A DNA stretch of 6,160 nucleotides from a virus (Duplodnaviria > Heunggongvirae > Uroviricota > Caudoviricetes), in IMG/VR virus record IMGVR_UViG_2648501392_000023, positions 1 through 6,160 of that record. One strand, 5' to 3'. Position numbers and translations under genes: made by a program. Below the pieces are notes generated by a model. That model saw only the letters and a program-made list of their open reading frames with translations, was not told where the DNA came from and did not search any database. Of this stretch, positions 1-6,160 are shown piece after piece (within the stretch, counting starts at the first letter, position 1; each line of letters starts with the position of its first letter).

Positions 1-291
1 TTACCGCCGCAGTCGTTCCGGCTTCTTCCACTGGTAAGTATTTTTCGCGCTCTCCCTCCGTTGTTGAGAACGGCGACGGTATGCCAGCAACTCAAGGACT
101 CTGGTTCGTATGTTGCGCATATCCACGCCGTTAAGCTCAATACCGTCACGGCGCATCACCTCAGCCACCACACGCGCGTAATTTTCGGCTATCACGCTGT
201 CCGGCTGTGTAGCCTGTTCGTCAGGCTGCTGACTGATTCCGGTAATGCGGCGAATTATTTTTAGTAGATCAGTTTCAGTCATTCTCGTCAT
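1..291 (-). CDS. hypothetical small protein (96 aa) translationally coupled to the large terminase
   Basis: Complete ORF: ATG at 291..289 overlaps the terL TGA stop (290..288) in an ATGA arrangement; TAA stop at 3..1. No family motif recognised; arginine-rich C-terminus. Confidence 0.5.
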   Translation of the reverse strand: MTRMTETDLLKIIRRITGISQQPDEQATQPDSVIAENYARVVAEVMRRDGIELNGVDMRNIRTRVLELLAYRRRSQQRRESAKNTYQWKKPERLRR

Positions 292-1949
292 ACCCCATCA
301 AACGCCGCAAGTCGCTCTTTGTGGCTGTCGCTCATATCAAATGCAAATTCCTCATGCTCTGCCTGGAATGTGCCAAACGCCATCAGCGCCGCAACGCTCG
401 GGTCTATCTTGTTGGATGATTTTTTCTTGTTCGGCTTGATATTGGCGTTCGCGTCACTCTGCATCACAACATTACTCATTGACCAGGCCAGCACCGGATC
501 ACCACGATGCACAATCACCTTCCGGTTAACAAAAACTTCGAACGATTTCGCCGCCGGACTGAAACGAAGGTATGTTTGCGGGAACGGCTCCACCTCAAAT
601 CCTGCCCCCTGTAGCTGCGTCCTCAGGTGCGTGGCGTTCCATGTATCGAAGCCCACCAGCCTGATATTGAAATTCTCTGCATCCGCCATGATGTCATCAC
701 GGATACGGTCATAATCAATGCAGTCACCAGGTGTTGTGCGTATCCAGCCCGCCTTTACCCACTGGCGATAGATGGCGCGGTTTTTATTGGCGGGGTTCTG
801 TAGCTGAAATTCCGGCAGATAGTGACGGGAAATCAGCATAATCTTTTTACCGACCGGAAAGGCATAGCACACGCTGGAAATATCGCTGGTTGATGATAAG
901 TCCAGCCCCGCGTAGCACTCCTGCCCGTATAAATCCGCCTCCGCGAACGTTCCGGCGCACTCCGCCCATGCACCGTTACCCATCCACGGCGTAGCCCCCT
1001 GACACCAGATATTGAATCGCTTGGTGAGCATTTCCACCCACTGCGACGGAATACCCCGCGCTTTCTGGATGGTTGAGGCCAGTTTTTCACGATCGACGGA
1101 AACATCGATATTTGGATTCGCCTTTATCCACATCGCCGGATCGTCAACCTCGCTTTCATCATCCAGCTCGTAAATCAGAACGAACATGGATTCGTTCATC
1201 TCTTCACCATCCAGTATCTGACAGCAATAGTCATAGTGTTGTTTACAGGCTGAAACAACGTTGCTCCCCGATGTGGTGATGGCAAATAACAGCCCCTCCG
1301 GACGCGCCCCCATCCCCAGCTCAAGTGCGGAATAAACCCCGTTGTCTGGGTGCAGGTGATATTCATCCACAATGGCAAGACTCGGGTTTGTCCCCTCAAT
1401 GGTTGCCGCTTTTGCTGCCAGTGGCTTTAACAGGCTGTTGGTTTTCGGGTGTATCACCTTGTGCGCCTGAATATTTACCCGCTTTCGTAACGGTCGGGAT
1501 AAAAGGCACATCTGACGCGCATCATCAAACACGATCCGCGCCTGATCACGACTCACGGCGGCGGTGTAAATATCCTGCTGCCCGTTTTCCATAACCAGAA
1601 ACCAGTTAGCCAGGATAGCGGCGACCGTGGATTTGGCATTTTTTCGCGGTACTTCAATGAATGCGCTGGTGTATTTGCGCCGTCCGGTGGCCTTAACCTT
1701 AAAGCCCAGGATGCAGGCAAAGGCGAACTGCTGCCACGGCTCCAGTTCAATGGGACTACCGCGCATTGCGCCTTTTACGTGCGGACACACCCGGGAAAAG
1801 GCAATAAACCGCTCCACGACCTCCGGATCGAACGTGTAAAGGGAGTTTTCAAGGTCAGAAAAATACCGTTTAACGGCCTGTTTCAGTCGTTTACAGGCCG
1901 TAATTTTGCCGTTTTTTACGCCTTCTGCGTACTCATGCCAGGCGGTCAA
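288..1949 (-). CDS. terL: terminase large subunit (Terminase_1-like ATPase/nuclease), 553 aa
   Basis: Deviant Walker A (VPRKNAKST), Walker B (LAIVDEYH), C-terminal nuclease-like acidic motifs (GLDLSSTSD, VGFDTW). Most upstream in-frame start is TTG at 1949..1947, preceded by GAGGA; the first internal ATG is about 60 codons in, so a non-ATG start is likely. Overlaps the terS 3' end by 17 nt. Confidence 0.9.
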   Translation of the reverse strand: MTAWHEYAEGVKNGKITACKRLKQAVKRYFSDLENSLYTFDPEVVERFIAFSRVCPHVKGAMRGSPIELEPWQQFAFACILGFKVKATGRRKYTSAFIEVPRKNAKSTVAAILANWFLVMENGQQDIYTAAVSRDQARIVFDDARQMCLLSRPLRKRVNIQAHKVIHPKTNSLLKPLAAKAATIEGTNPSLAIVDEYHLHPDNGVYSALELGMGARPEGLLFAITTSGSNVVSACKQHYDYCCQILDGEEMNESMFVLIYELDDESEVDDPAMWIKANPNIDVSVDREKLASTIQKARGIPSQWVEMLTKRFNIWCQGATPWMGNGAWAECAGTFAEADLYGQECYAGLDLSSTSDISSVCYAFPVGKKIMLISRHYLPEFQLQNPANKNRAIYRQWVKAGWIRTTPGDCIDYDRIRDDIMADAENFNIRLVGFDTWNATHLRTQLQGAGFEVEPFPQTYLRFSPAAKSFEVFVNRKVIVHRGDPVLAWSMSNVVMQSDANANIKPNKKKSSNKIDPSVAALMAFGTFQAEHEEFAFDMSDSHKERLAAFDGV

Positions 1950-2289
1950 GTTCGTCCTCTTCCTCTGTTTCCGGTGGATTTCTGCGACGGCTTACCGGGT
2001 CAAAACCCAGCAAAGAAGCCATTTTGATCATTATTCTTTCTGCGTCAGCCTTTGCGCTCAGTGCGGGGTTTCTGCTCTCGCTGCCCTGACTGTTAACAAT
2101 GCTGAACCCGCGCGTCGCAAGGTCTTCGACGGCTTTGCGGTATATGGAGTAGTTAACACAATACAGTTCCAGATTGCTCCAGTCGGCGGGGGTAAGGTCT
2201 TCCCGCCCGGAAAGCTGGCGCGATTTTTCCTTCCACTGCCTGACCGCGATTTCATCCAGGTAAGCGGGGGCTTTTGGTGGTCTTGCCAT
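1933..2289 (-). CDS. terS: terminase small subunit, P27-family-like, 118 aa
   Basis: ATG at 2289..2287 gives MARPPKAPAYLDE...; the N-terminal RPPK motif and central LELYCVNYSIY segment resemble P27-type small terminases. TGA stop at 1935..1933. Sits immediately upstream of terL. The ORF-track extension to 2430 is not supported. Confidence 0.8.
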   Translation of the reverse strand: MARPPKAPAYLDEIAVRQWKEKSRQLSGREDLTPADWSNLELYCVNYSIYRKAVEDLATRGFSIVNSQGSESRNPALSAKADAERIMIKMASLLGFDPVSRRRNPPETEEEDELDRLA

Positions 2290-2340
2290 GTTCTTTTTTC
2301 GCCCAATTATTTTCAAAAAAATTACCGTGCACAAAAATTT

Positions 2341-2400
2341 GAGGGGGCGGTCGGTGTCCGGCAGGGACGGTTTCGTCCTGAAAACCACCCCCACCCCCTC
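2341..2400. other. GC-rich imperfect palindrome in the HNH-terS intergenic region; candidate cos (cosN-like) site or strong stem-loop
   Basis: GAGGGGG (2341..2347) and CCCCCTC (2394..2400) form an outer inverted repeat around an inner hairpin GGACG-GTTT-CGTCC (2365..2378). It lies about 50 to 100 bp upstream of terS and downstream of HNH, where HK97-type cos sites are found. Confidence 0.3.
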
Positions 2401-2408
2401 TGACGGCC

Positions 2409-2594
2409 TCACCAGCGATTGCGAAAACATTCCATGACCTCGCGGTCACGGTCGGTTAATCGCTTCGCTGTGGTGCGTTTTGTGCGCCCTGTCCTGTTGG
2501 CTTTGTGCTCTGTCTCCTGTGTCTTCCATGTGTCACGCTGCCTTATCAGTCCACGTATCAGCCTGGTTTGCTCCTGTTCAGTCATCATCGCCAT
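2409..2594 (-). CDS. possible small basic protein (58-61 aa) overlapping the HNH stop; may be non-coding
   Basis: Three in-frame ATGs (2594, 2588, 2585) give MAMMTEQEQTRLIRGLIRQRDTWKTQETEHKANRTGRTKRTTAKRLTDRDREVMECFRNRW; the start overlaps the HNH TGA. The region is strongly purine-rich on the coding strand and could instead be packaging-site DNA. Confidence 0.2.
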   Translation of the reverse strand: MAMMTEQEQTRLIRGLIRQRDTWKTQETEHKANRTGRTKRTTAKRLTDRDREVMECFRNRW

Positions 2595-3018
2595 ACATCC
2601 AGTCGTTACGGTGTGCCGCCCGTTCTTCCTGCTCGCGATACATGCCCGCTTTACGGTTTGCTTTCGTGGCTGGATCTTCCCGTGTCGTCTTACGGTTGTG
2701 GCACGTCTGGCACAATGCCTGGTGATTCCACTCAGGCCAGAAGAGAACATCACCGCCGCCATTGATGGGAATGATGTGATCCACCACAAGAGCTGGCGTA
2801 TAAATCCCCTTAGCCAGACAACGCACGCATAACGGGTTTTTGCTCAGGTACAGGGCGCGGTATTTGTCCCACTGTCGGGAATACCCGCGCGCGCGGCGGT
2901 GTCCCCGTCTGGCATCCTCTGCACGCCATGCAGCCCGCCTGTGCTCTTCACACTTGCCGGACTTCACGCGCTTATTACAGCCAGGCTCAGTGCATCGCCT
3001 TAATGGTTGCCACGGCAT
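2578..3018 (-). CDS. HNH endonuclease (terminase-associated), 146 aa
   Basis: N-terminal CxxC...C cysteine pairs plus DHIIPINGGG...NHQALCQTCHNRKT HNH signature. ATG at 3018..3016 overlaps the TGA of the upstream connector gene (ATGA). Directly precedes terS. Confidence 0.85.
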   Translation of the reverse strand: MPWQPLRRCTEPGCNKRVKSGKCEEHRRAAWRAEDARRGHRRARGYSRQWDKYRALYLSKNPLCVRCLAKGIYTPALVVDHIIPINGGGDVLFWPEWNHQALCQTCHNRKTTREDPATKANRKAGMYREQEERAAHRNDWMYGDDD

Positions 3019-3320
3019 CAGTACACCCCTACGTCACGATAAACTGACCAGAGCGCAGAAATAGCCATAGGCAGTTCCGAGTGCTCCACTGGTGAAACCG
3101 CTTCCCGGTTCTCGTACAGGAAAGCGATGTACATCAGGCAACCAACACGCATTGCCGGGGTAAATTCCAGCCCGTCTTCAAAACGTTTCCCGATATGCTT
3201 CTGGCAGGCTTCCAGCGCCGCATCGGTATACATTTTCAGAAGTTCGCCTTCACCGGATAAATCATCATCAAGTCGAAGATGTGCCCTGACTTCATCAGGT
3301 GTAATTCTGGCTTCACTCAT
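3018..3320 (-). CDS. gp6-like head-tail connector protein, about 100 aa
   Basis: ATG at 3320..3318 with upstream AGGGAGAAAAG RBS gives MSEARITPDEVRAHLRLDDD... and a later LYENREAV motif, matching the gp6-like connector family signature. The start overlaps the last codons of the portal gene by 8 nt. The ORF-track extension to 3407 is rejected. Confidence 0.75.
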   Translation of the reverse strand: MSEARITPDEVRAHLRLDDDLSGEGELLKMYTDAALEACQKHIGKRFEDGLEFTPAMRVGCLMYIAFLYENREAVSPVEHSELPMAISALWSVYRDVGVY

Positions 3321-4527
3321 CTTTTCTCCCTTTAATTTCCACAGTCTGTTTCCATGCCTGGCTGAACTCATCACCACCTTCACGCGGCGGCATACCCTCA
3401 CGCTCACGGGCTTCGTTCGGATTCATGATCCCGTTCTTAATCCCTTTCTCATACGTGGCATAACGTTCGGTGGGTGTGGCGCGTAATAAATCGGCTGAAT
3501 CAAACTCAACCAGATAACGGGTACCAGGTACGGGAGAAGCCACCAGCAAAGCGGCCTTGATTTGCTGTTCGAAGTTCGCCAGCCACGGGCGCATTGTCAT
3601 GGTCAGAAACGCGCGGCTTGCCTCGCTGAAATTGCTGTAGGTGCTGTTGCTGTATTCCTGCAGAAAAATAGGCGATACGTTGAACATGCGGGCGATGTCT
3701 TCAATGGAGAAGCGACGGGAGGCCAGCCATTCCGCATCCTGGTTACTCATTCCCAGTTGCCTGTAATCCATGCCCCCTTCAAGGATTGGCGTTTTTCCGG
3801 CATTTTTCGCCCCCTTGTAGCGTTCCAGAGCATCCAATGCCTGTTTACCTTTCACGCCGTCCAGCCATTCGCCTGACGTGATAATCCCTGCCGCCATCAT
3901 GCCATCTTTCATAATGCTGGCTCCGTGGCGCTGTTGAGCAAGGCCAAGCCCAAGTGCCTCACGGCAAATCGTGACGGGGGAGCGCCCCAGAAAGCCATCA
4001 TCCGAGGCATAGCGGAGATGCAGAACTTCTTCCTGTAAATACGTGCGCACCGTTCCTGTATAGGGTTCGGTGATGGTATAGCGGTATTTGTGTGCGCCTG
4101 TGCGTTCCGGTACAACACACCCCGGCGCATAAGGATGAAGTGATTTTGGCTGCCCGTCCTGCCCCCACTCAATAACCGCATAGGCGTTACCGTTCAGCAG
4201 GCAGTGACGCATCATTGTGCGTTTAAACTGGTAAGGTGTCTGGCACGAATTAGGCTGCTCATTCAGCAGAATATCTACCGGGTGACTGTCCAGCCATTCC
4301 CGCGCCTCCCTGCCCTTGTCATTACGTACCAGATACAGATAACACGGCATCGTGGCCACCGCCTCAGCGATGACAGAAACCGCATTCATCACTGCAGGCA
4401 ATGATTCAGCCGTCCCGGCAGAAACATATTCTCCGGATCCGGTATTCGGTACGCCGGACAGCGCCAGAAAATCATCAATGGACAGGTTACGCTGCTCGCT
4501 TTTTTTACGACTAAAAGGCCACCACAT
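3313..4527 (-). CDS. portal protein, HK97 family, 404 aa
   Basis: ATG at 4527..4525 (MWWPFSRKK...), one nt after the protease stop. Conserved portal core: ...NQDAEWLASRRFSIEDIARMFNVSPIFLQEYSNSTYSNFSEASRAFLTMTMRPWL. The ORF-track start at 4617 is a TTG extension overlapping the protease gene. Confidence 0.9.
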   Translation of the reverse strand: MWWPFSRKKSEQRNLSIDDFLALSGVPNTGSGEYVSAGTAESLPAVMNAVSVIAEAVATMPCYLYLVRNDKGREAREWLDSHPVDILLNEQPNSCQTPYQFKRTMMRHCLLNGNAYAVIEWGQDGQPKSLHPYAPGCVVPERTGAHKYRYTITEPYTGTVRTYLQEEVLHLRYASDDGFLGRSPVTICREALGLGLAQQRHGASIMKDGMMAAGIITSGEWLDGVKGKQALDALERYKGAKNAGKTPILEGGMDYRQLGMSNQDAEWLASRRFSIEDIARMFNVSPIFLQEYSNSTYSNFSEASRAFLTMTMRPWLANFEQQIKAALLVASPVPGTRYLVEFDSADLLRATPTERYATYEKGIKNGIMNPNEAREREGMPPREGGDEFSQAWKQTVEIKGRKDE

Positions 4528-4528
4528 A

Positions 4529-5089
4529 TCACAACCCCGCCAGCTCAGACCAGCGATGACGATTATTTCCTGTCGGGCATAATTCAGGGTGCTGTGCAAA
4601 CAACGAACGGTGGGCAATCTCCACGCCAGATTCTGGATAAGCAGGCATCGACGTTATTGTGATTTCACGGAGTTCAGCGGCGGTTACGGTACGCAAATAC
4701 GGTTTTTGCGCGATACTCCACTCCTCGCATAATGCGCGAAAACCAAAGCTCATTCCTGTAATGTCGCCACGCTCCACCAGCGTAAGCACATCTTTTCCAA
4801 GCTGGGTATCCGGCGGTGTCAGTTCAAAACGTAACCCGGTGTTATCCTCAGTCAGTACCAGAGTGCCGGATTTGGTGCGCCCCAGCAGTTGGGTATAGTC
4901 ATGCTCATACAGGCAGCGCACATCATTACCCGCCGCCAGATAGTCAGCAAAAGCCCCCGGCGTGAACTGTTCGCGGAATTCGTCCCAGATAATTTCTGAA
5001 AGGCTGTTCCAGCGAACGGCATACCCCACCAGCTTTTTATTGCTGGCGGTCAGTTCAGATGTGCGGATTTCAAAATCGGTGTTTTTCAT
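4529..5089 (-). CDS. prohead maturation protease, HK97 family (S78-like), 186 aa
   Basis: ATG at 5089..5087 with GGAG 7 nt upstream. VGYAVRWNS...PGAF, a His-containing LYEHD segment and the GMSFGF serine motif are typical of HK97 prohead proteases. Confidence 0.85.
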   Translation of the reverse strand: MKNTDFEIRTSELTASNKKLVGYAVRWNSLSEIIWDEFREQFTPGAFADYLAAGNDVRCLYEHDYTQLLGRTKSGTLVLTEDNTGLRFELTPPDTQLGKDVLTLVERGDITGMSFGFRALCEEWSIAQKPYLRTVTAAELREITITSMPAYPESGVEIAHRSLFAQHPELCPTGNNRHRWSELAGL

Positions 5090-5143: not shown

Positions 5144-6061
5144 CTAGCCAGCTTTCATTTCCAGAATTTTGATGGCGTTTGAATCCACCACACCACCGCC
5201 CAGATATTTATCCGTGTGGACCTTGTAGAATCCGGGTTCAGTAATGTTGTCCGGTCGGGTGCGAATCCCTGTTACATGATCAACGATGAAATAACCACGA
5301 CTGAAATCGCCAACCGCTAGCGGTGCTTTTCCTGCGCCGATGTCCGGCATGGACTCCAGGCAGTAAACAGGACGACCAAGCAACATATCCGGCGCACCTT
5401 CTTTAAGGCTGTCGCGCCAGATATAATCGCCGTTCTCATTTTTCAGCTTCTGTAGTGTCCCTGCCGTGCCCGAGTTCATCACCCAGACGGCATTTTTGCG
5501 GTATTTCGCTTTCAGCTTGTAGAGAATGTCGATCAGTTCGTCCGCTGTAATGGCGGTTCCACTTGCCGCTACCATTTTTTCAATGGTGCCAAAAGCGCGG
5601 GTTTTGTCACTGGTCGCCGCACGGGTGTAAGCCATGAAGCCTTTCGGCTTGCCGTTACCGTTGCCATTAACAAAATCATCCTCTTCGGTGCTGGCGAACG
5701 TGTCGGCAATTTCGGAGGATAACCAGCCCAGAATATCCACCTCTGAAAAATCTAGGATTTCCTGCGTGGTTTTCGGGTAGGCGTAGATCGGGTTCAGCTT
5801 GATGGTTACGCGTTCAATTTTCGGGGTGTTGGTTTCACTGCGTGCGCTGCCTTCTGTGCCTCGTCCTACAGTTGCGCCGCCAGTGGAAACCAGTTTCTGA
5901 AACTCATTTGATTTTGCAGTCTTCACGGTCGCGATCACGCGCATAACACTGTCATCCTGTAGCTGGCGCATGACTTCGCGATCAAGCTCAGGAATTACGG
6001 TATATCCGCCATCCCTGCCGCTGTCAGTGCTGGTGGACAGAGATCGCACATCTCCGGTTAC
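5144..6061 (-). pseudogene. major capsid protein, HK97 fold; 5' end interrupted by an IS insertion (about 305 codons retained)
   Basis: Conserved capsid-domain segments: GGYTVIPELDREVMRQLQDDSVMRVIATVKT near the N-terminus of the retained part and LLGRPVY...GDFSRGYFIVDHVTGIRTRP...YLGGGVVDSNAIKIL at the C-terminus. TAG stop at 5146..5144. The frame runs without an ATG into the IS terminal repeat at 6062; the first 31 residues of ORF-track 5144..6154 are IS-derived. Confidence 0.75.
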
Positions 6062-6160
6062 TGAACCGCCCCGGGAATCCTGGAGACTAAACTTCCTGAG
6101 AAAGAGGTAAACAGGATGACTAAAAATACTCGTTTTTCCCCTGAAGTCCGTCAACGGGCA
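6062..6160 (+). mobile_element. IS3-family insertion sequence (IS629/IS1203-like), left terminal inverted repeat and start of orfA; continues beyond the window
   Basis: Terminus starts TGAACCGCCCCGGGAATCCTGGAGAC (typical IS3-family TG... end), followed by AAGAGG RBS and orfA ATG. Family assignment is from recalled IS629-type sequence, not a search. Confidence 0.75.
6116..6160 (+). CDS. IS3-family transposase OrfA, N-terminal 15 codons (partial, runs off the window)
   Basis: ATG at 6116 translates to MTKNTRFSPEVRQRA, matching the recalled N-terminus of IS629/IS1203-type OrfA; RBS AAGAGG 7 nt upstream. Confidence 0.75.
   Translation, partial: MTKNTRFSPEVRQRA

What the first reader, a model, noticed from the sequence alone, without database searches (positions are those of the whole stretch)
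2341..2400. GC-rich two-fold symmetric element between HNH and terS: candidate cos site
The outer GAGGGGG/CCCCCTC inverted repeat and inner GGACG-GTTT-CGTCC hairpin sit in the only sizeable non-coding stretch of the operon, about 50 to 100 bp upstream of terS. In HK97-type systems the HNH protein cooperates with terminase to cut cos, and cos lies between the HNH gene and terS. The G-run GGGGGCGGTCGG is loosely reminiscent of lambda cosN (GGGCGGCGACCT). On the coding strand the element is followed by AAATTTTT, so it could instead be a transcription terminator.
Basis: partly seen in the sequence, partly recalled or inferred. Interest (0 to 1): 0.5.

Follow-up and report, generated by a model that had tools for sequence, protein, structure and literature searches.

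The report
Cohesive-end (cos) site of a phage satellite
The GC-rich element lies in the DNA-packaging start/stop signal (cos site) of a capsid-forming phage satellite; the likely cut sits in one arm of the repeat, so this is an expected kind of signal now located to about 100 bp.

Summary
The window is the packaging module of a capsid-forming PICI (cf-PICI), with all genes on the minus strand.

- **Observation.** The repeats exist as described. They are no better than chance in this one sequence, and the inner hairpin is specific to this clade.
- **Conservation.** About 95 bp (2307-2400) is conserved upstream of terS in 47 of 48 species. It comprises a G-block (GGGGTGGGGG), a variable spacer, ACC-N7-CC, CTCAAATTTTT, GCACGG and ATTTTTTTGAAAATAA.
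- **Physical ends.** Four linear assemblies from particles or metagenomes break here. One 15.5-kb contig lacks exactly 10 nt, which is what blunting of a 10-nt 3' overhang produces.
- **Predicted cohesive end.** In the window this is CGACCGCCCC, minus strand, 2353..2344.
- **Match to mapped cos sites.** With that cut, the G-block, the AC^CG nick context, the T7 tract and the terS start fall within about 1-5 nt of their positions at HK97 cos. The G-block and nick context also match mycobacteriophage Murphy.
- **Rivals.** No terminator and no conserved RNA fold is supported.

Verdict: this is an HK97-type, HNH-associated 3'-cos site. The functional unit is larger than flagged, asymmetric, and does not depend on the hairpin.

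The parts
2385..2400 (-). G-block GAGGGGGTGGGGGTGG, at -57..-42 from the predicted coding-strand nick. Core GGGGTGGGGG is 2388-2397. It is the upstream cos subsite and stays on the last-packaged (HNH-side) end.
   Evidence: The core is invariant or nearly so in 132 unique relatives. A G-block occupies the same position at mapped cos ends: HK97 -51..-43, Murphy -54..-41, Boomer -47..-34. The 22-mer at 2404..2383 is identical in 152 cluster-E mycobacteriophages.
2375..2384 (-). Conserved tail of the G-block, TTTTCAGGAC.
   Evidence: T2381-2384 are 92-99% conserved and A2376 is 99% conserved. The particle-derived record LR881103.1 ends exactly here.
2356..2374 (-). Variable spacer. Together with 2375-2378 it forms the clade-specific hairpin GGACG/CGTCC (2365-2378).
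   Evidence: Information content is low. The hairpin is absent or shifted in other clades.
2344..2353 (-). Predicted 10-nt 3' cohesive end: CGACCGCCCC on the minus strand, GGGGCGGTCG on the plus strand. Predicted nicks lie between 2344|2343 on the minus strand and between 2353|2354 on the plus strand.
   Evidence: The linear 15,518-nt contig L549 ends ...AAGGCAC and starts CTCAAATTTTT.... In 150 unbroken loci with the same flanks, the segment between is always exactly 10 nt. The nick context AC^CG is shared with HK97 and Murphy.
2333..2343 (-). CTCAAATTTTT, at +1..+11. It is nearly invariant and is the first duplex DNA of the left (terS-side) end.
   Evidence: Conservation is 88-100% across Enterobacterales, Aeromonas and Pasteurellaceae. 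It is the first sequence of contig L549.
2325..2330 (-). GCACGG, at +14..+19. A conserved block.
   Evidence: G2330 is 100% conserved, C2329 98% and G2325 97%.
2307..2322 (-). ATTTTTTTGAAAATAA, at +22..+37. The T7 tract is at +23..+29. This is the predicted TerS binding or bending site.
   Evidence: It is nearly invariant. HK97 TerS binds +15..+29, which includes an A-tract (10.1101/2023.07.17.549218), and the HK97 T7 tract is at +24..+30. The block travels with the rest of cos when 100-130 nt are inserted before terS (L124, L129, L131).
2290..2306 (-). Variable leader and ribosome-binding region of terS.
   Evidence: It is not conserved between clades.
1933..2289 (-). terS, small terminase of the P27 family. 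The ATG is at +55 from the predicted nick.
   Evidence: PF05119, E=1.6e-23; phrog_83.
288..1949 (-). terL, large terminase.
   Evidence: PF03354 and PF20441. It is 27-28% identical over its full length to HK97 and Murphy TerL.
2578..3018 (-). HNH endonuclease.
   Evidence: PF01844. It is 36% identical to HK97 gp74 at E=8e-16.
2409..2588 (-). Small ORF of 59 aa. Its start overlaps the HNH stop codon and its stop codon lies 8 nt before the G-block. Function unknown.
   Evidence: phrog_3173, E=5.6e-27. PGAP annotates it as a hypothetical protein. The C-terminal motif RDRE..ECFRNR is kept in diverged relatives.

Best explanation
Window 2307-2400 is the cos site of a capsid-forming PICI, of the HK97 (HNH-dependent, 3'-overhang) type. 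It reads on the minus (coding) strand.

**Proposed mechanism**
- TerS (P27 family) binds the A/T-tract block at about +14..+37 (2307-2330).
- TerL, helped by the HNH protein, makes staggered nicks in the C-rich arm. One nick falls after ...CGACCGCCCC^CTCAAA on the minus strand (2344|2343). The other falls at AC^CG, that is between 2353|2354 on the plus strand. The result is a 10-nt 3' overhang, CGACCGCCCC.
- Packaging proceeds from the terS side round the excised, concatemeric element and ends at the next cos.
- The G-block (GGGGTGGGGG, -55..-42) arrives last. It probably acts as an upstream, cosQ-like termination or positioning subsite.

**Shown here**
- The conserved blocks and their order.
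- The breaks of particle-derived assemblies at this site.
- The 10-nt gap in one linear contig.
- The positional agreement with mapped cos sites.

**Inferred**
- Which protein binds which block.
- The exact nick positions.
- The role of the G-block.
For: **1. Context**
- The gene order is capsid, protease, portal, connector, HNH, small ORF, gap, terS, terL.
- The identical region in E. coli KSC9 lies in a 14-kb island that also carries an integrase, an HTH regulator, a DUF927 primase-type protein and SSB. That island has no tail or lysis genes. This is the published cf-PICI layout (10.1101/2022.09.08.507074).
- cf-PICI DNA shows cohesive-end concatemers on gels (10.1101/2025.02.11.637232).

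**2. Footprint**
- 47 of 48 loci retrieved by TerS protein from different species carry the same blocks upstream of terS. They come from Enterobacterales, Aeromonas and Pasteurellaceae.
- In 132 unique sequences the blocks are nearly invariant, while the spacer and the leader vary.

**3. Physical ends**
- LR881103.1 (vB_KppS-Ant) was assembled from particle DNA with Nextera XT and SPAdes (PMC8006926). It lacks 69 nt that are present in the integrated copy of K. pneumoniae ATCC 13883. The missing stretch runs from -31 to +38.
- PQ569648.1 is a chimeric record. Its cf-PICI part runs from terS codon 1 to the end of the small ORF.
- IMG/VR contig 3300022664_000095 is 15,518 nt and in full packaging order. 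It starts at CTCAAATTTTT and ends at ...AAGGCAC, with no terminal repeat. It lacks exactly the 10 nt found in all 150 unbroken relatives.
- End-repair removes 3' overhangs, and assemblers place cos ends at contig limits (PMC5557969).

**4. Agreement with mapped sites**
- G-block: -55..-42 here, -51..-43 in HK97, -54..-41 in Murphy.
- Recessed nick: AC^CG in all three.
- T7 tract: +23..+29 here, +24..+30 in HK97, inside or beside the HK97 TerS site at +15..+29.
- terS ATG: +55 here, +50 in HK97.

**5. Proteins**
- TerL and HNH are homologous to those of HK97 and Murphy.
Against: - No ends were mapped for this element itself.
- The window copy has its capsid gene cut by an IS element. It may therefore no longer package itself.
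- The library type of the metagenome behind L549 is unknown, and the 10-nt gap rests on a single contig.
- A second contig, 3300011242_000019 (L532), runs 12 nt past the predicted nick to ...CTCAAATTTTTA. It restarts inside terS, so its break is ragged or includes read-through.
- Local alignment to the HK97 cos junction is not significant: score 17 against a shuffle mean of 17.5. The HK97 resemblance is positional, not sequence homology.
- HK97 TerS is not detectably similar to this TerS.
- Part of the 132-sequence set was collected with DNA patterns, which inflates the invariance of some columns.
Confidence: 0.82

Rival explanations
1. The site is cos, but the nicks lie 12 nt further towards terS. 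The cohesive end would then be the 12-nt CTCAAATTTTTG (2332-2343). Contig L549 would start at the recessed nick, and contig L532 would end at the protruding nick.
For: - L532 ends exactly at ...CTCAAATTTTTA and L549 starts exactly at CTCAAATTTTT.
- One paper gives 12 nt for the HK97 overhang (PMC9410871).
- CTCAAATTTTT is the most conserved block.
Against: - The exact 10-nt shortfall at the other end of L549 would be left unexplained.
- The G-block would move to about -67..-54 and the T7 tract to +11..+17. That loses the agreement with HK97 and Murphy.
- The shared AC^CG nick context would be lost.
- End-repair removes 3' overhangs rather than keeping them.
- L532 is a poor assembly near its end. 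Its G-block is garbled and about 245 nt are missing.
Confidence: 0.12
2. The GC-rich inverted repeat is a transcription terminator or attenuator, or another RNA structure, between the HNH/small-ORF genes and terS.
For: - The RNA of 2325-2410 folds to -40 kcal/mol with z = -2.0.
- AAATTTTT follows the stem.
- C-to-T changes in the C-run would keep G.U pairs.
Against: - AAA separates the stem from the T run, and the terminator scan does not report it.
- RNAalifold on 30 diverged sequences keeps only 5 G-C pairs, at -2.86 kcal/mol with a covariation term of -0.09.
- Pair 2398/2343 is unpaired in 76% of sequences, with no compensating change.
- There is no Rfam match.
- This reading does not explain the conserved A/T block, the assembly breaks, or the same G-block at virion DNA ends in other phages.
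Confidence: 0.04
3. The conserved A/T-rich block is only a promoter or regulator-binding site for terS-terL, and the packaging site lies elsewhere.
For: - The block lies directly upstream of terS.
- It contains TTGAAA and a near-consensus IHF-like CTCAAatttTTG. The IHF resemblance is recalled from memory and was not tested.
Against: - No sigma-70-like site was called on the coding strand.
- In L124, L129 and L131 the whole block sits 100-130 nt further from terS, yet stays attached to the G/C blocks.
- Four linear assemblies break here and nowhere else.
Confidence: 0.04

Closest known systems
Bacteriophage HK97 cos site, served by terminase gp1/gp2 with HNH protein gp74
   Same: - It lies between the HNH gene and terS on the circular map.
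- The TerL and HNH proteins are homologous.
- It has a 3' overhang of about 10 nt.
- A G-run lies about 43-51 bp before the cut.
- The recessed nick falls at AC^CG.
- A T7/A-tract lies at about +24..+30, within or next to the mapped TerS site.
- terS starts about 50 bp after the cut.
   Different: - There is no significant sequence alignment.
- TerS belongs to a different, P27-type family with no detectable similarity to gp1.
- The overhang sequence differs: CGACCGCCCC here, against the last 10 nt CGCCGCCAAA in HK97.
- HK97 has a plain G9 run rather than GGGGTGGGGG.
- This host element is a 14-16 kb satellite that makes its own small capsids.
cos ends of cluster E (Murphy, Kostya) and cluster F (Boomer) mycobacteriophages
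   Same: - The G-block is identical: GTCAGAGGGGGTGGGGG, or a 22-mer in cluster E. It lies 34-41 nt before the right genome end.
- The overhang is 3' and 9-10 nt long.
- Murphy has the AC^CG nick context.
- An HNH gene lies next to cos.
   Different: - The hosts are Actinobacteria.
- TerL is only 28% identical.
- No A/T block follows the cut.
- In Boomer the HNH gene lies after cos, not before it.
Lambda cos (cosQ-cosN-cosB)
   Same: The logic is tripartite: an upstream subsite that stays on the last-packaged end, a nicking site, and a downstream small-terminase site towards the terminase genes. This comparison rests on established knowledge.
   Different: - Lambda has 12-nt 5' overhangs, and its cosN has two-fold symmetry centred on the cut. 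It has no HNH protein and uses a different terminase family.
- Here the overhang is 3', since the contig ends show no terminal duplication.
- Here the cut lies in one arm of the repeat, not at its centre.
cf-PICIs (EcCIEDL933, KpCIDSM30104)
   Same: - The window is one of these elements.
- The EDL933-type O157:H7 copy has the same blocks, with predicted overhang CGAACGCCTC.
- KpCIDSM30104 is the element behind LR881103.1.
   Different: The papers held in the library say these elements package by cos and show cohesive ends. I found no statement of the position or sequence of the site.

Membership tests
HK97-type (HNH-associated) 3'-cos site | Lies next to the terminase genes, with an HNH gene adjacent on the circular map | tested here: met
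   The order is HNH 2578-3018, small ORF, gap, terS 1933-2289, terL 288-1949.
HK97-type (HNH-associated) 3'-cos site | Served by an HK97-like TerL plus an HNH protein homologous to gp74 | tested here: met
   TerL matches PF03354 and PF20441 and is 27% identical to HK97 gp2 (E=1e-48). HNH is 36% identical to gp74 (E=8e-16).
HK97-type (HNH-associated) 3'-cos site | Packaged DNA has fixed ends at the site | tested here: inconclusive
   Four linear assemblies from particles or metagenomes break within or around the site. All are from relatives, not from this copy, and no read-level mapping was possible.
HK97-type (HNH-associated) 3'-cos site | 3' overhang of about 9-12 nt | tested here: inconclusive
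   One complete linear contig lacks exactly 10 nt and has no terminal repeat. That is the expected signature of a 3' overhang (PMC5557969). It is a single contig and the library type is unknown.
HK97-type (HNH-associated) 3'-cos site | Small-terminase binding site just downstream of the cut | not testable with these tools
   Only position could be compared. The T7 tract is at +23..+29 here, against the HK97 site at +15..+29 and the HK97 T7 tract at +24..+30.
HK97-type (HNH-associated) 3'-cos site | Cleavage needs TerL together with HNH | not testable with these tools
   This is a biochemical test.
Lambda-type cosN | 12-nt 5' overhang, which is filled in during library preparation and so duplicated at both contig ends | tested here: not met
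   L549 has no terminal repeat of 8-59 nt, and 10 nt are missing rather than duplicated.
Lambda-type cosN | Lambda-like terminase (gpA/Nu1 families) and the GGGCGGCGACCT core | tested here: not met
   TerL and TerS match PF03354/PF20441 and PF05119. The core sequence is absent from 2290-2410.
Intrinsic (rho-independent) terminator | G+C-rich stem followed immediately by a U run, with the stem kept by compensatory changes | tested here: not met
   AAA precedes the T run and the scan does not call it. The covariation term is -0.09, with uncompensated mismatches.
Capsid-forming PICI (cf-PICI) | Island of 10-18 kb with an integrase, regulation and replication genes, and the order capsid-protease-portal-connector-HNH-terS-terL, with no tail or lysis genes | tested here: met
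   The window shows the packaging-module order. The full island in E. coli KSC9, with a 100% identical cos region, has the integrase, the HTH regulator, the DUF927 primase-type protein and SSB, between hpt and gcd. Criteria are from 10.1101/2025.02.11.637232.

The most novel reading that the evidence does not exclude
The G-block (GGGGTGGGGG, about 42-55 bp before the cut), together with the AC^CG nick context, may be a general and so far undescribed subsite of HNH-dependent 3'-cos sites.

- It occurs in enterobacterial and Pasteurellaceae satellites, in HK97 (as a plain G9 run), and in mycobacteriophage clusters E and F.
- A similar G-block lies about 95 nt upstream of terS in Brucella phage BiPBO1, whose ends were not mapped here.
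- It could be read by a conserved part of the packaging machine, such as HNH, the TerL nuclease or the portal, at termination.
- A 22-nt identity across phyla would then reflect very strong constraint, or transfer of the cos module.
Probability: 0.35. Interest if true: 0.6.

Novelty: new member of a known kind. Interest (0 to 1): 0.42.

Why it matters
cf-PICIs spread across species by packaging themselves into their own small capsids and borrowing tails. The cos site is the only cis-acting signal that decides what gets packaged.

A defined site of about 100 bp, with predicted nicks, would be useful in several ways.
- It gives a direct test: a cosmid-type plasmid carrying 2300-2410 should be mobilised.
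- It allows cf-PICI-based delivery vectors to be built.
- It gives a motif for finding such sites in genomes and viromes.
- Its subsites can be mutated to ask what HNH, TerL and TerS each recognise.

The last question is still open even for HK97. The element itself is of an expected kind.

Tried and rejected
- **Terminator or RNA structure.** Tested by the terminator scan, a single-sequence fold, Rfam, RNAalifold on 30 diverged sequences and per-pair counts. There is no support.
- **Inner hairpin as a conserved feature.** Rejected.
- **Symmetry as a statistical signal in the single sequence.** Rejected.
- **Sequence homology to HK97 cos.** Local alignment is not significant. Only positions agree.
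- **Promoter.** Nothing was called on the coding strand.
- **IMG/VR pattern scans for contigs ending in cos.** Many apparent ends were storage-chunk boundaries; L264 and L147 abut. Only ends confirmed by contig_range were used.
- **TerS-based retrieval of the two contigs' far ends.** This failed. They were reached by hopping through mid-element genes instead.
- **Literature.** No paper in the library gives the cf-PICI cos sequence or mentions the G-block. The BiPBO1 paper is not held.

Full report
**What the window is**

All genes run on the minus strand. In order they are:
- major capsid, 5144 to about 6061. Its 5' part is replaced by an insertion sequence from 6062 onwards.
- prohead protease, 4529-5089
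- portal, 3313-4530
- gp6-like connector, 3018-3320
- HNH endonuclease, 2578-3018
- a 59-aa ORF, 2409-2588
- a 119-nt gap, 2290-2408
- terS of the P27 family, 1933-2289
- terL, 288-1949
- a 96-aa ORF, 1-291

The 411 bp around the finding occur in 491 of 5,426 complete E. coli genomes. In E. coli KSC9 the region is 100% identical. There it lies in an island between hpt and gcd that also carries an integrase, an HTH regulator, a DUF927 primase-type protein and SSB, with no tail or lysis genes. This is the layout published for capsid-forming PICIs (cf-PICIs), including the unusual order capsid...HNH-terS-terL (10.1101/2022.09.08.507074). Those papers say cf-PICIs package by cos and show cohesive-end concatemers (10.1101/2025.02.11.637232). 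I found no statement of where the site is.

**The observation**

The outer arms are present: GAGGGGG at 2341-2347 and CCCCCTC at 2394-2400. So is the inner hairpin GGACG-GTTT-CGTCC at 2365-2378. In this single sequence they are not remarkable.
- 27% of dinucleotide shuffles of the gap contain a 9/10 inverted repeat.
- 55% contain a perfect 7-mer repeat.
- The RNA fold has z = -2.0.

The small ORF is real: it matches phrog_3173, is annotated by PGAP, and has a conserved C-terminus.

**Conservation**

I collected the region upstream of terS from several sources:
- 80 IMG/VR loci found by TerS protein
- 48 loci from different bacterial species, found with a TerS alignment
- two Pasteurella records
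- pattern scans

Of the 48 species loci, 47 carry the same arrangement. The exception is a truncated terS in Erwinia tracheiphila. On the coding strand, 132 unique sequences align as follows:
- GGGGTGGGGG (2397-2388)
- GTTTT.A..AC
- a variable spacer (2374-2356)
- ACC (2355-2353)
- N7-CC
- CTCAAATTTTT (2343-2333)
- GCACGG (2330-2325)
- ATTTTTTTGAAAATAA (2322-2307)
- a variable leader, then the terS start

Other points from the alignment:
- Some of the invariance comes from how sequences were selected. The subset of 79 retrieved by protein shows the same pattern.
- In three Pasteurellaceae the whole block sits 100-130 nt further from terS but stays intact. It is therefore a unit in its own right, not just the terS leader.
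- The inner hairpin exists only in the window's clade.
- The G-run/C-run complementarity persists because both runs are conserved. Where they vary, the change is not compensated.
- RNAalifold finds no conserved structure, Rfam finds nothing and the terminator scan does not call the element.

**Physical ends**

Four independent linear assemblies break here.

(a) LR881103.1, 'vB_KppS-Ant'. This is a 16.5-kb cf-PICI assembled from particle DNA of K. pneumoniae DSM 30104 using Nextera XT and SPAdes (PMC8006926).
- The record starts 22 nt before terS and ends at ...TTTTCAGGAC.
- In the integrated copy of the same strain (ATCC 13883) these two points are 69 nt apart.

(b) PQ569648.1. This is a chimeric record. 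Its cf-PICI part runs from terS codon 1 to the last codons of the small ORF, where the record ends.

(c) IMG/VR contig 3300022664_000095. It is 15,518 nt and is a complete element in packaging order, terS first and HNH last.
- It starts CTCAAATTTTTACGCACGG... and ends ...AAGGCAC.
- It has no terminal repeat.
- In all 150 unbroken loci with the same flanks, exactly 10 nt lie between these two points: CGCCTGCCCC, CACCCGCCCC, CGCCCGCCCC, CGACCGCCCC and similar.
- End-repair enzymes remove 3' overhangs, and assemblers put cos ends at contig limits (PMC5557969). A clean 10-nt gap is therefore what a 10-nt 3' cohesive end should leave.

(d) Contig 3300011242_000019, 16,257 nt. It also ends in the site, but 12 nt further on at ...CTCAAATTTTTA.
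- It restarts inside terS, and its G-block is garbled.
- I treat this as a ragged break.
- It is the basis of a rival placement of the nicks.

**Placement in the window**

The predicted cohesive end is CGACCGCCCC on the minus strand, 2353..2344. The predicted nicks lie between 2344|2343 on the minus strand and between 2353|2354 on the plus strand.

**Comparison with mapped cos sites**

TerL is 27-28% identical over its full length to the TerL proteins of HK97 and of mycobacteriophage Murphy. The HNH protein is 36% identical to that of HK97 and 31% to that of Murphy.

A BLAST of the gap against phage records gave an unexpected hit.
- The 22-mer GTCAGAGGGGGTGGGGGTGGTT (2404..2383) is identical in 152 cluster-E mycobacteriophages.
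- There it lies 38 nt from the right genome end.
- It sits downstream of their HNH gene and 29 nt before the 9-nt overhang CGCTTGTCA.

Cluster F phages share 17 nt of it at the same place. Brucella phage BiPBO1 has GGGGCGGGGGCGGTT about 95 nt upstream of terS. HK97 has a G9 run.

The table sets the predicted nick as -1|+1.

| Feature | This window | HK97 | Murphy |
|---|---|---|---|
| G-block | -55..-42 | -51..-43 | -54..-41 |
| Recessed nick context | AC^CG | AC^CG | AC^CG |
| T7 tract | +23..+29 | +24..+30 | none |
| terS ATG | +55 | +50 | not compared |

In Boomer the G-block is at -47..-34. In HK97 the TerS footprint is +15..+29 and depends on an A-tract (10.1101/2023.07.17.549218). These agreements were not used to place the cut, so they are independent support for it.

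A plain local alignment to the HK97 junction is not significant. The resemblance is one of architecture, not of sequence.

**Mechanism proposed**

- TerS binds the A/T block.
- TerL, helped by HNH, nicks the C-rich arm and leaves a 10-nt 3' overhang.
- Packaging runs from terS round the concatemer.
- At the next cos the G-block is the last conserved DNA to enter. It may help to position or trigger the final cut. In HK97 the motor stalls against TerS bound downstream, and GP74 (the HNH protein) promotes cleavage (PMC9410871; PMC10359639).

The protein assignments and the role of the G-block are inference.

**Verdict**

The terminator alternative does not.
- The element is a new, fairly precisely delimited example of a known kind of site.
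- The symmetry is probably two G-rich motifs in opposite orientation. One overlaps the nick and the other lies upstream. It is not a centred cosN.
- I put about 0.8 on this being the cos site.
- I put about 0.6 on the nicks being exactly where predicted.

Noticed in passing
window 6062-6160: Capsid-gene homology stops at 6061. The rest matches a sequence present at up to 50 places per genome in 3,578 of 5,426 E. coli genomes, so it is an insertion sequence. Its reading frame starts MTKNTRFSPEVRQRA, which I recall as IS3-family, IS629/IS1203-like; that identification was not tested. This cf-PICI copy therefore lacks roughly the first 84 codons of its capsid gene. No complete E. coli genome in the collection has this junction.
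   Followed up: partly
window 2383-2404; L006 (Murphy) 2121-2142: An exact 22-mer is shared between this E. coli satellite and 152 cluster-E mycobacteriophages. A 17-mer is shared with cluster F. In every case it lies at the same distance from a 3'-cos end. TerL is only 28% identical, so the DNA identity is unexplained: it could reflect constraint, transfer or chance.
   Followed up: partly
window 2409-2588 (minus strand): A 59-aa basic ORF whose start overlaps the HNH stop codon (ATGA) and whose stop codon lies 8 nt before the cos G-block. It matches phrog_3173, of unknown function. It is present in most enterobacterial relatives and absent in Pasteurellaceae. It could be a cos accessory protein.
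   Followed up: partly
L002 (LR881103.1): 'Escherichia phage vB_KppS-Ant' was described in its paper as a filamentous ssDNA prophage. By gene content, and by identity to K. pneumoniae ATCC 13883, it is a cf-PICI. It is evidently the element later studied as KpCIDSM30104.
   Followed up: yes
L259 (PQ569648.1, 89500-106503): 'Klebsiella phage P12620-1' (106.5 kb) is a chimeric record. Its last 15.4 kb or so is a cf-PICI joined at terS codon 1 to unrelated sequence.
   Followed up: partly
L116-L123, L138 (Pasteurellaceae bacterium Macca): One genome carries at least nine terS loci of this family on several contigs. Some have 100-190 nt of other sequence between the cos block and terS.
   Followed up: no
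window 1-291 (minus strand): A 96-aa ORF directly after terL matches phrog_1561 (E=1e-53), of unknown function. It is conserved in the KSC9 island.
   Followed up: no
window 2333-2344: CTCAAATTTTTG, and AATCAAATTTTTA in Pasteurella, resembles the IHF consensus WATCAANNNNTTR as I recall it. If that is real, a host bending protein could act next to the nick, as at lambda cos. Not tested.
   Followed up: no
window 2344-2353 and relatives: The predicted overhang varies between elements at positions 2, 3, 5 and 9: CGACCGCCCC, CACCCGCCCC, CGCCTGCCCC, CGAACGCCTC. The flanks are fixed. Different cf-PICIs may therefore have non-interchangeable cohesive ends.
   Followed up: no
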